From a virus (Duplodnaviria; Heunggongvirae; Uroviricota; Caudoviricetes), in the IMG/VR virus record IMGVR_UViG_3300045988_151019: a DNA stretch of 52,849 bases. One strand, given 5' to 3'. A model generated the notes under the pieces. The model ran no database searches and had not been told where the DNA came from. It was given only the letters and a program-made list of their open reading frames with translations. Shown in pieces: positions 18,594 to 19,638 of this stretch; position 1 is the first letter of the stretch; each line of letters opens with the position of its first letter. A program made the position numbers and the translations under genes.

Positions 18594-19262
18594 TTATTTC
18601 ACCGGAACAAACGGAACAGCGGTATTACTGGTCATATACTGCGGTAATGTACCGTTCCATTTGTTGATCGCTTCCAACTCCATAACACCGGGGTTCTGGC
18701 GCAGAGCTTCACCACGTAAACGAATGGCATCAGCTTCGGCCTGGGCTTTTGTGCGAATAGCATCAGCCTGTCCGGCAGCTTCCGCGCGCAGCATGTTGGC
18801 CTCTGCTTCACGTTGTTTGACCTCTTGCTCGCGTTGCAGGGTTTTTTGGTTTGCCGTGACTTTGGCGTTAATACTGTCAATAACTGTTGGCGGGTATTCT
18901 GGCTTACCTACATAAGAGAGGCTCATCACCTGAATGCCGATTGGCGTCATTTCTTCCTGAATGTCTTTAAGGGCTGCATCAAGCAATTCAGATTTGCCAC
19001 CGTCGATAAATTTGTCGGTGGTCATTTTGCTGGCTAACCGGTTCAGAGCATCTGCAACCTTCTGGCGTAGATCGGTATCAGTAATATCATCTACACCTTT
19101 GCGATAGGTCTGAAATACCGTTGTGACTTTTGCTGGATCAACCTTGTAGGCTACGCCGATGTGGTAACCAATGGTTGTTCCGTCGCTCATCTGGAAGCTG
19201 AACGGCTCATCGTATGTCTTCATTTGCTTAAAGGTCGGGAAGATATAAACTTCAGTATTCAA
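18594..19262 (-). CDS. SPFH/band-7-like domain protein; frame extends upstream to an in-frame TAA at 19377-19379 that cuts off a lipoprotein signal peptide
   Basis: ORF track 222 aa; upstream in frame: MKKTLISAAIILGS-stop-CLTGCDRVEPG (lipobox LTGC). Confidence 0.6.
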   Translation of the reverse strand: MNTEVYIFPTFKQMKTYDEPFSFQMSDGTTIGYHIGVAYKVDPAKVTTVFQTYRKGVDDITDTDLRQKVADALNRLASKMTTDKFIDGGKSELLDAALKDIQEEMTPIGIQVMSLSYVGKPEYPPTVIDSINAKVTANQKTLQREQEVKQREAEANMLRAEAAGQADAIRTKAQAEADAIRLRGEALRQNPGVMELEAINKWNGTLPQYMTSNTAVPFVPVK

Positions 19263-19401
19263 GCCTGTCCAGTAGCGACCAACGCCAACTACTTCACCGA
19301 TACCTTTATCATCCCCCAGCTTATTTACTTTGATCCCTACGTTACCTGGCTCTACCCGATCGCATCCGGTCAGACATTAAGAACCCAAAATAATCGCTGC
19401 A

Positions 19402-19638
19402 CTAATCAACGTTTTTTTCATTAATTAATTTCCTGGTTTTTTCACGAAAAAAGACTACTGCGAAAGCCGGGTAAATGAGCGCGAGAAGGACTCCCAACAA
19501 TACAAGTATTGTGCTGTTAGATGAGATCATATTTGGCAAAAGCCAAACATACAGAACCAGTGACACAATCAAACAGAGGACGGCATAAATATATAACCGC
19601 ACCCATAGCGTTCGACATTTGTTCGGATTGTTCTGCAT
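19402..19638 (-). CDS. small two-helix membrane protein
   Basis: ORF track 78 aa; two hydrophobic segments. Confidence 0.45.
   Translation of the reverse strand: MQNNPNKCRTLWVRLYIYAVLCLIVSLVLYVWLLPNMISSNSTILVLLGVLLALIYPAFAVVFFREKTRKLINEKNVD

What the first reader, a model, noticed from the sequence alone, without database searches (positions are those of the whole stretch)
18594..19421. In-frame ochre stop separates a lipoprotein signal peptide from its SPFH-domain body
Reading the minus strand from ATG at 19421 gives MKKTLISAAIILGS-TAA-CLTGCDRVEPGNVGIKVNKLGDD... and runs in frame into the 222-aa SPFH/band-7 ORF. A canonical signal peptide and lipobox (LTGC) are thus split from the domain by a single TAA at 19377-19379. 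Possible explanations are a recent nonsense mutation, a sequencing error, reinitiation at the internal TTG (giving a cytoplasmic, unlipidated protein), or stop-codon readthrough.
Basis: seen in the sequence. Interest (0 to 1): 0.5.

Follow-up and report, generated by a model that had tools for sequence, protein, structure and literature searches.

The report
Private nonsense mutation in phage lipoprotein gene
A single base change (TTA to TAA), found only in this sequence, puts a stop codon in the signal peptide of a dispensable membrane-scaffold lipoprotein gene on a P1-like phage-plasmid, so it is an ordinary knocked-out accessory gene (or a base-call error), not a recoding signal.

Summary
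On the minus strand, ATG 19421 opens MKKTLISAAIILGS. TAA at 19377-19379 is codon 15, and the frame continues CLTGCD... through a complete SPFH/Band-7 domain to the stop at 18594.

The window is a P1-like (Punavirus, IncY) phage-plasmid. The gene and a 78-aa membrane-protein partner sit where classical P1 has tciABC, inside the C1-repressed ban operon.

Every relative checked reads TTA (Leu) at codon 15. That covers 59 fetched loci, 164/177 E. coli replicons and 149-150/168 plasmids with the exact wild-type probe. A TAA-specific probe found nothing, and its wild-type control found 150 plasmids. Homologues down to 74% identity keep the signal peptide and an [LVIM][TV]GC-D lipobox, so the upstream ATG is the natural start.

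No rescue route is supported:
- The stop context is UAA-U, the strongest terminator context.
- The window has no suppressor tRNA.
- The first canonical in-frame restart (TTG, codon 54) has a weak Shine-Dalgarno and would delete four predicted beta-strands plus all export and lipidation signals.

The sequence is otherwise clean: no indels over 32 kb and five private substitutions in 24 kb. A real, recent loss-of-function mutation is most likely (about 0.75) and a base-call error next (about 0.2). Interest is low.

The parts
19380..19421 (-). First 14 codons (MKKTLISAAIILGS), the n-region and most of the h-region of the lipoprotein signal peptide. The ATG at 19421 is preceded by AGGA with a 9-nt spacer.
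   Evidence: Identical to the start of the annotated 275-aa gene in MH422554, 813R1, Ro157c2YLVW and RCS47.
19377..19379 (-). Premature ochre codon TAA (codon 15). The variant base is 19378. All relatives have TTA (Leu). The next base is T, giving the context UAA-U.
   Evidence: (59/59 covered loci carry the wild-type base).
19362..19373 (-). Lipobox L-T-G-C (codons 17-20). It is followed by Asp at +2 (19359-19361), the classical inner-membrane retention residue.
   Evidence: The [LVIM][TV]GC-D motif is conserved in homologues. The meaning of Asp+2 comes from established knowledge of Lol sorting, not from a test here.
18594..19376 (-). Rest of the SPFH/Band-7 reading frame (codons 16-275 plus the natural TAA stop). 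It is now untranslated unless translation restarts.
   Evidence: Pfam Band_7. AlphaFold model with mean pLDDT 74.3. Foldseek matches to prohibitin, HflK/C, erlin, stomatin and QmcA, E down to 4.8e-13.
19260..19262 (-). TTG at codon 54, the first canonical in-frame start after the stop. It would give a 222-aa cytoplasmic fragment.
   Evidence: SD duplex -3.0 kcal/mol against -4.3 for the native start. The fragment would lack model strands E2-8, E12-18, E27-30 and E33-38.
19402..19638 (-). Intact 78-aa two-helix membrane protein. It is the upstream partner gene and overlaps the SPFH start by 20 nt.
   Evidence: phrog_1130 'membrane protein' E = 6.4e-16. 48% identical to the partner in phage P88. 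Equivalent unannotated ORF in phiP27.
21378..21405 (.). Divalent C1 operator: a perfect 17-mer plus a 2-mismatch 17-mer. It corresponds to P1 Obanab/Op72ab with the P1ban/P2ban promoters and is the likely control point of the whole operon.
   Evidence: 9 operator-like sites against 0.34 expected by chance. P1 reference annotation.
20567..20720 (-). tRNA-Asn (GTT) and tRNA-Thr (TGT) in the operon leader. Neither is a suppressor.
18491..18566 (-). tRNA with CAT anticodon (trnI/ileX-like in P1), immediately downstream of the SPFH gene. It is not a suppressor.
16840..18204 (-). ban (DnaB-like helicase), the downstream gene of the same operon and a possible target of polarity.
   Evidence: (the dnaB annotation in pM505-b maps to these coordinates).

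Best explanation
A genuine, recent point mutation (minus-strand T->A at 19378, Leu15 TTA -> ochre TAA) has inactivated an accessory gene of a P1-like phage-plasmid.

The intact gene encodes a 275-aa prolipoprotein. It has a signal peptide, the lipobox LTGC and Asp at +2 (inferred: lipid-anchored to the periplasmic face of the inner membrane). These are followed by an SPFH/Band-7 domain and a long coiled-coil helix of the kind that builds HflK/C- or prohibitin-like cages.

In this sequence the ribosome starts at the native ATG, makes the 14-residue peptide MKKTLISAAIILGS and terminates at UAA-U. No exported, lipidated SPFH protein is made, so the gene is a fresh pseudogene.

The loss is tolerated because the gene and its intact 78-aa membrane partner are cargo in a hypervariable slot of the C1-repressed ban operon. 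Classical P1 carries tciABC there, and that slot is dispensable for P1 growth. A possible side effect (inferred only) is Rho-dependent polarity on the downstream trnI and ban.
For: Shown:
- The stop is a one-base difference from four phage relatives.
- 59/59 covered relatives carry the wild-type base.
- The exact wild-type 81-mer is in 164/177 E. coli replicons and 149/168 plasmids. The TAA-specific 31-mer has 0 hits in both sets, and its wild-type control hits 150 plasmids.
- 35 IMG/VR and 15 metagenome contigs all read TTA.
- Homologues at 74-98% identity keep the signal peptide, the lipobox and a constant length of about 275 aa.
- Sequence quality: the window aligns without gaps over 32,188 nt to its nearest plasmids. 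19378 is an isolated SNP. Only five private bases fall in about 24 kb, all substitutions: 1 synonymous, 3 missense, 1 nonsense.
- Independent lesions occur in the same gene elsewhere: a 1-nt deletion at codon 48/49 in two SRA runs and in-frame deletions in P0002 and P0004.
- Dispensability: the slot is hypervariable region 7 of P1-like phage-plasmids, and about half of subgroup 1 lack tciABC (PMC9603915). tciA-C, trnI, ban and dbn score non-essential in a P1 CRISPRi screen (PMC10695390).
- Operon placement.
Against: - The allele is seen in one sequence only and no reads are available, so a base-call or consensus error gives exactly the same picture.
- Absence of the full-length protein is inferred, not measured.
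- Expression of the operon in this element, and any polarity, are inferred from P1. The only supporting computation for polarity is a modest C>G patch at 18813-18920.
Confidence: 0.75

Rival explanations
1. Base-call, consensus or assembly error: the real molecule reads TTA and the gene is intact.
For: The allele is unique among several hundred relatives. A singleton substitution is what an isolated consensus error looks like. Three of the window's five private changes are missense and one is nonsense, which fits random errors as well as young mutations.
Against: The window has no indels at all against its relatives over 32 kb, whereas error-prone assemblies usually show homopolymer indels. 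Five private substitutions in 24 kb is far above the residual error rate of polished assemblies and looks like a real tip branch. The site (TCTTTATGT) is not a long homopolymer. Other real-looking knock-outs of this gene exist, for example the same 1-nt deletion in two independent read sets.
Confidence: 0.2
2. Reinitiation after the stop yields a shortened, cytoplasmic, unlipidated SPFH protein that keeps or gains a function.
For: An in-frame TTG at codon 54 opens a 222-aa ORF, and gene callers do call it in similarly damaged relatives.
Against: TTG-54 lies 117 nt past the stop and has a weak SD (-3.0 kcal/mol). The next ATGs (codons 67 and 78) have essentially none. The nearest ATG (TAATG overlap) is out of frame and stops after 11 codons. 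The fragment would lack residues 22-53 of the Band_7 match and four predicted N-terminal beta-strands. It would also be on the wrong side of the membrane. No homologue has this architecture as its natural form.
Confidence: 0.03
3. Stop-codon readthrough or suppression (programmed, or through a host or phage ochre suppressor) still gives the full-length lipoprotein.
For: Only that the frame is perfectly continuous across the stop. That is expected for any fresh nonsense mutation.
Against: A programmed stop should be conserved, but here 0 relatives carry it. UAA followed by U is the most efficient termination context in E. coli (established knowledge; context shown). The window's three tRNAs are Asn-GTT, Thr-TGT and CAT, none of them a suppressor. 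Rfam finds no recoding element.
Confidence: 0.02

Closest known systems
SPFH domain-containing lipoprotein of P1-like IncY phage-plasmids (WP_000751808.1 in pM505-b, pCREC-532_2 and pSJ_98; RCS47 gp078 YP_009624924.1; Ro157c2YLVW gp84; MH422554 AXF39193.1)
   Same: Same locus between upl and trnI/ban, and the same 828-nt gene. The protein is identical to MH422554, 813R1 and RCS47 at every other residue.
   Different: Codon 15 is TAA instead of TTA, so the window's copy is not translatable as a full-length protein.
phiP27 L05, P88 gp12 and Stx-phage 'lipoprotein / putative serine protease' genes (PHROG 200)
   Same: Same family: about 86% DNA identity from the lipobox onward, and phrog_200 E = 2.3e-113. 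Same two-gene cassette with a small 2-TM membrane protein whose stop overlaps the lipoprotein start.
   Different: Different phage backbones (lambdoid, P2-like) and a different signal-peptide sequence. Those copies are intact. The 'serine protease' label has no support here; the only hint is a weak phrog_11227 hit, E = 8e-4.
HflK/HflC, QmcA-YbbJ, prohibitin, stomatin and erlin (SPFH cage-forming scaffolds)
   Same: Same fold and overall architecture: an SPFH domain plus a long coiled-coil helix. Weak sequence similarity to HflK (E = 1.8e-4).
   Different: Only 14-18% identity. NCBIfam HflK/HflC scores are far below the cut-offs (24.7 against 134.4 bits). The membrane anchor is a lipobox rather than a transmembrane helix. 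The partner is a 78-aa membrane protein with no NfeD domain.
tciA-tciB-tciC cassette of classical P1
   Same: Occupies the same slot of the C1-controlled ban operon, between upl and trnI. Both are non-essential, variable cargo.
   Different: Unrelated proteins (TerB-like against SPFH lipoprotein). DNA similarity between the window and P1 resumes only at trnI (H24-H28).

Membership tests
Bacterial lipoprotein (SPase II / Lgt substrate) | N-terminal positively charged n-region plus hydrophobic h-region | tested here: met
   MKK + TLISAAIILGS(L). In the window the h-region is cut by the stop at codon 15.
Bacterial lipoprotein (SPase II / Lgt substrate) | Lipobox [LVI][ASTVI][GAS]C at the end of the signal peptide | tested here: met
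   LTGC at codons 17-20. Conserved as [LVIM][TV]GC in homologues.
Bacterial lipoprotein (SPase II / Lgt substrate) | Actual lipid modification and signal-peptide cleavage | not testable with these tools
   Needs globomycin sensitivity, palmitate labelling or mass spectrometry. For the window allele none is expected, because translation stops before the lipobox.
SPFH / Band 7 (PF01145) | Significant match to the family profile above the curated cut-off | tested here: met
   E = 9.7e-31, 107.6 bits against 23.6, residues 22-208.
SPFH / Band 7 (PF01145) | SPFH alpha/beta fold followed by a long coiled-coil helix | tested here: met
   Model with pLDDT 74.3 and helix 163-227. Foldseek probability 1.00 to PHB1/2, HflK/C, erlin and stomatin.
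SPFH / Band 7 (PF01145) | Assembly into a multimeric membrane cage | not testable with these tools
   Would need a multimer prediction or cryo-EM. Inferred only by analogy.
SPFH-NfeD operon | Adjacent partner carries an NfeD domain | tested here: not met
   The 78-aa partner has no NfeD hit in Pfam. Its only hit is a sub-threshold DUF5693 match. It belongs to phrog_1130 'membrane protein'.
HflK / HflC (FtsH modulators) | Score at or above the NCBIfam equivalog cut-off | tested here: not met
   24.7 and 23.3 bits against cut-offs of 134.4 and 159.4.
Programmed stop-codon readthrough / recoding site | The stop codon is conserved at the same position in homologues | tested here: not met
   0 of 59 aligned loci. 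0 hits for the TAA-specific probe in 20,395 E. coli records and 72,556 plasmids, with a working positive control.
Programmed stop-codon readthrough / recoding site | Leaky stop context, stimulatory element or cognate suppressor tRNA | tested here: not met
   UAA-U context. tRNAs are Asn, Thr and CAT only. No Rfam element.
Pseudogene by nonsense mutation | Intact orthologues at the same locus, differing by a single base that creates the stop | tested here: met
Pseudogene by nonsense mutation | No alternative start that preserves the functional domains | tested here: met
   The first canonical in-frame start is codon 54, inside the Band_7 domain, with a weak SD.
Pseudogene by nonsense mutation | The mutation is real in the molecule and not a sequencing artefact | not testable with these tools
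   No reads available. Indirect evidence only: no indels in 32 kb and 5 private substitutions in 24 kb.
P1 ban operon, hypervariable region 7 | Located between upl and trnI/ban, downstream of the divalent C1 operator Obanab at the end of dmt | tested here: met
   Operator at 21378-21405. The gene order matches the P1 reference annotation and the relatives.

The most novel reading that the evidence does not exclude
The knock-out may be selected rather than accidental. The SPFH-lipoprotein/2-TM cassette could be a costly or conditionally harmful phage accessory system, for example a membrane-remodelling or exclusion function switched on with the ban operon. It would then be repeatedly disabled in plasmid-state lineages. 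Different lesions do occur in relatives: this ochre codon, a shared 1-nt deletion in two read sets, in-frame deletions, a fusion to the partner ORF, and a lipobox Cys->Tyr variant of a 74%-identical homologue seen on 175 contigs. If so, the window would be a natural null allele for working out what this uncharacterised cassette does.
Probability: 0.08. Interest if true: 0.35.

Novelty: already known. Interest (0 to 1): 0.08.

Why it matters
It matters little beyond annotation. The locus should be annotated as a pseudogene (or flagged for resequencing), not as a 222-aa 'SPFH protein' starting at TTG. It should not be cited as an example of readthrough or of a cytoplasmic SPFH variant.

Two by-products have mild interest:
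- The SPFH lipoprotein always travels with a small two-helix membrane protein as a mobile cassette across P1-like, P2-like and lambdoid phages. The function is untested, and the partner is often left unannotated.
- In P1-like elements this cassette is the alternative occupant of the tciABC slot in the C1-repressed ban operon. If the allele is real, it is a ready-made natural knock-out for studying the cassette.

Tried and rejected
- Searched for the TAA allele everywhere available: phage records, PLSDB, complete E. coli genomes, IMG/VR, metagenomes and GTDB representative genomes. No hit anywhere. The GTDB scan found neither allele.
- Looked up the truncated 222-aa product to find the source contig. 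It found a different frameshift allele in two read sets and one N-gap artefact, not the window.
- PADLOC gave no defence-system match for either protein.
- A literature search for a tested function of prophage SPFH lipoproteins found nothing relevant. A search on pseudogenes in P1-like phage-plasmids was unhelpful.
- The sigma-70 scan found no promoter near the cassette. There was one hit in 3.3 kb, inside ban, which is fewer than in shuffles. An own promoter for the cassette is therefore neither shown nor excluded.
- Rfam found only the three tRNAs. P1's 'dicF-like region' does not reach the DicF gathering score.
- Rejected the suppressor-tRNA idea.
- Rejected the out-of-frame ATG in TAATG as a coupling start: it gives an 11-codon ORF and is also present in the wild type.
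- Rejected the 'natural start is internal' idea.

Full report
**1. The observation**

The minus strand from ATG 19421 translates as MKKTLISAAIILGS-stop-CLTGCDRVEPGNVGIKVNKLGDD... and runs in one frame for 275 codons to the TAA at 18594-18596. The premature TAA is at 19377-19379, which is codon 15. The list of mechanical ORFs shows the 222-aa ORF that begins at TTG 19262. With Leu put back at codon 15, the protein matches Pfam Band_7/SPFH over residues 22-208 (E = 9.7e-31, well above the curated cut-off).

**2. What the replicon and the gene are**

The 1.3-kb region is 99.2-99.9% identical to eight P1-like (Punavirus) phage records. A 24-kb stretch of the window is 99.7-99.8% identical to IncY, non-mobilizable E. 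coli plasmids such as pM505-b, pCREC-532_2 and pSJ_98.

In all of them the gene is annotated as an 828-nt 'SPFH domain-containing protein' or 'lipoprotein' starting at the upstream ATG. It lies between dmt/tRNA-Asn/tRNA-Thr/plp-upl and tRNA(CAT)/ban. Classical P1 has tciA-tciB-tciC in exactly this place, and DNA similarity to P1 resumes only at trnI.

The P1 reference record places the promoters P1ban/P2ban and the divalent C1 operator Obanab (Op72ab) at the end of dmt. The window has a perfect C1 operator paired with a 2-mismatch one at 21378-21405, the same relative position. The cassette is therefore most likely part of the C1-repressed ban operon. This is inferred from synteny. No separate promoter was found.

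**3. The partner gene**

Immediately upstream, and overlapping the SPFH start by 20 nt, is an intact 78-aa ORF (19402-19638) with two hydrophobic helices. It matches phrog_1130 'membrane protein'. The same pair occurs in two other phage types:
- In P2-like phage P88 the partner is 48% identical.
- In lambdoid phiP27 an unannotated 62-aa ORF overlaps the lipoprotein ATG.

So this is a mobile two-gene accessory cassette. It is not an SPFH-NfeD pair, because the partner has no NfeD match. It is not in PADLOC.

**4. Codon 15 in relatives**

Across the 151-nt start region, MH422554 and Ro157c2YLVW differ from the window only at minus-strand position 19378 (T in them, A in the window). 813R1 and RCS47 each carry one further difference elsewhere in the region. 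The encoded proteins are otherwise identical or differ by one residue.

- Of the 60 loci fetched at that point, 59 cover the site and all 59 have the wild-type base. The remaining locus is a run of N.
- The window's 81-mer matches no record at 100% in 177 E. coli replicons, 168 plasmids and 8 phage records.
- The wild-type 81-mer matches 164/177 E. coli replicons and 149/168 plasmids at 100%.
- A 31-mer probe, in which every 28-nt seed word must contain the TAA base, gives no match in either collection. The wild-type 31-mer control finds 150 plasmids.
- All 35 IMG/VR and 15 metagenome contigs that contain the surrounding 42-mer read TTA.

The allele is private to this sequence.

**5. The natural start**

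Homologues from Escherichia, Shigella, Salmonella, Klebsiella, Enterobacter, Citrobacter, Erwinia phage Pastis and Klebsiella phage MY01 are 73-98% identical and nearly all 275-276 aa long. All begin M[KR]K + hydrophobic stretch + [LVIM][TV]GC-D.

The signal peptide and lipobox are therefore a conserved, selected part of the protein. Asp at +2 after the lipid-modified Cys is the classical Lol-avoidance signal (established knowledge). The mature protein is therefore inferred to sit on the periplasmic face of the inner membrane.

**6. Can the protein still be made?**

- *Readthrough.* The stop is UAA followed by U, which is the most efficient termination context in E. coli (established knowledge). 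The window's tRNAs are Asn-GTT, Thr-TGT and CAT. Nothing in Rfam suggests a recoding element. A programmed stop would be conserved, and this one is not.
- *Restart.* The first canonical in-frame start after the stop is TTG at codon 54, 117 nt downstream, with a weak SD duplex (-3.0 kcal/mol). The next ATGs, at codons 67 and 78, have none. The ATG inside TAATG is out of frame and opens an 11-codon ORF.

An AlphaFold model of the post-stop frame (mean pLDDT 74.3) has the full SPFH architecture. Foldseek matches it to prohibitin, HflK/C, erlin, stomatin and QmcA (E down to 4.8e-13). A TTG-54 product would lack the first four predicted beta-strands and all export and lipidation signals. A functional rescue is therefore unlikely.

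**7. Real mutation or error?**

The window aligns to its nearest plasmids over 32,188 nt with 149 mismatches and no gaps. Most mismatches cluster in patches, for example 21726-22004 in dmt and the 35-37 kb region. Position 19378 is isolated, with its nearest neighbours at 16577 and 20168.

Against at least 8 relatives, only five bases in 8-32 kb are private. All are substitutions: 10341 synonymous, 13112 Pro->Gln, 19378 nonsense, 20168 Ala->Val in plp, and 21766 Glu->Val in dmt. This looks like a short real tip branch in a clean assembly, not noisy sequence. Without reads, however, an isolated consensus error cannot be excluded.

Other damaged alleles exist in this gene. Two independent read sets share a 1-nt deletion at codon 48/49. 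Database clusters show in-frame deletions (P0002, P0004) and a fusion with the partner ORF (P0001).

**8. Why it is tolerated**

The tciABC slot is one of eight hypervariable regions of P1-like phage-plasmids, and about half of subgroup-1 elements lack tciABC (PMC9603915). In a genome-wide CRISPRi screen of P1, tciA-C, trnI, ban and dbn all scored non-essential (PMC10695390). Loss of a cargo gene here, and even some polarity on trnI/ban, should not impair propagation. Polarity itself is speculative. The newly untranslated 783 nt contain one modest C>G patch (18813-18920, C/G up to 1.85).

**9. Verdict**

This is a private TTA->TAA nonsense change in a well-known, widely annotated accessory gene. 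A recent loss-of-function mutation is most likely (0.75) and a base-call error less likely (0.2). Functional restart (0.03) and readthrough (0.02) are not supported.

The feature is real in the sequence but ordinary, and its kind is already known. The only mildly interesting residue is the uncharacterised SPFH-lipoprotein/2-TM cassette itself. If real, this allele would be a natural null for it.

Noticed in passing
protein P0001; corresponds to window 19402-19638 plus 18594-19421: One database cluster (8 members, 94-kb contig) is a 347-aa fusion of the 78-aa membrane partner with the SPFH lipoprotein (...KLINEK-TLISAAIIF...). The likely cause is an indel in the A7 run of the start region ATGAAAAAAACG.
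   Followed up: no
L058:2843-3004 and L060:966-1127 (Logan assemblies of SRR35950926 and SRR29499105): Two independent read sets share a 1-nt deletion (the T of GGT at codon 48/49) that frameshifts the same SPFH gene. This is a different knock-out allele from the window's.
   Followed up: partly
protein P0118: A 74%-identical homologue seen on 175 contigs across Enterobacteriaceae has Tyr in place of the lipobox Cys (IIGYD). It is a widespread variant that cannot be lipidated.
   Followed up: no
L002:1563-1775 (phage vB_EcoM-813R1), equivalent to window 19402-19638: 813R1 has a 1-nt deletion in the T-run near the 3' end of the partner ORF. The ORF is annotated as 70 aa instead of 78 aa.
   Followed up: no
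window 19402-19638 (-); L005-L007; L062:1763-1951: The small membrane-protein partner is absent from the PLSDB gene tables of the three closest plasmids and is unannotated in phiP27. This is despite its conservation across P1-like, P2-like and lambdoid phages.
   Followed up: partly
window 5190, 7282, 7331, 10955, 21378-21405, 24911, 39560, 41220: Nine matches to the P1 C1-operator consensus ATTGCTCTAATAAATTT with up to 3 mismatches, against 0.34 expected by chance. They map the immunity-controlled promoters of this element.
   Followed up: partly
window 21726-22004 (dmt) and 35000-37107: Clusters of SNPs against otherwise near-identical plasmids (11 differences in about 280 nt, and 64 in about 2 kb). 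They look like recombination patches, not point-mutation drift.
   Followed up: no
window 37107-37724 and 1-4920: Alignment to the nearest plasmids breaks here. Only fragments at 94-98% identity align upstream of 4920, and there is a gap at 37.1-37.7 kb. The gene content differs from pM505-b and pCREC-532_2 in these segments.
   Followed up: no
window 19161-19424 (+): On the opposite strand the same base change removes a stop (TAA->TTA in that frame) and lengthens an antisense open frame (87-aa ORF). It is almost certainly meaningless.
   Followed up: no
phage records FO818745, MH160767, LC5678xx, AJ298298: The gene is labelled 'putative serine protease' in several phage records. No protease domain was found here. 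The only hint is a weak phrog_11227 hit (E = 8e-4), so the label looks like a propagated misannotation.
   Followed up: partly
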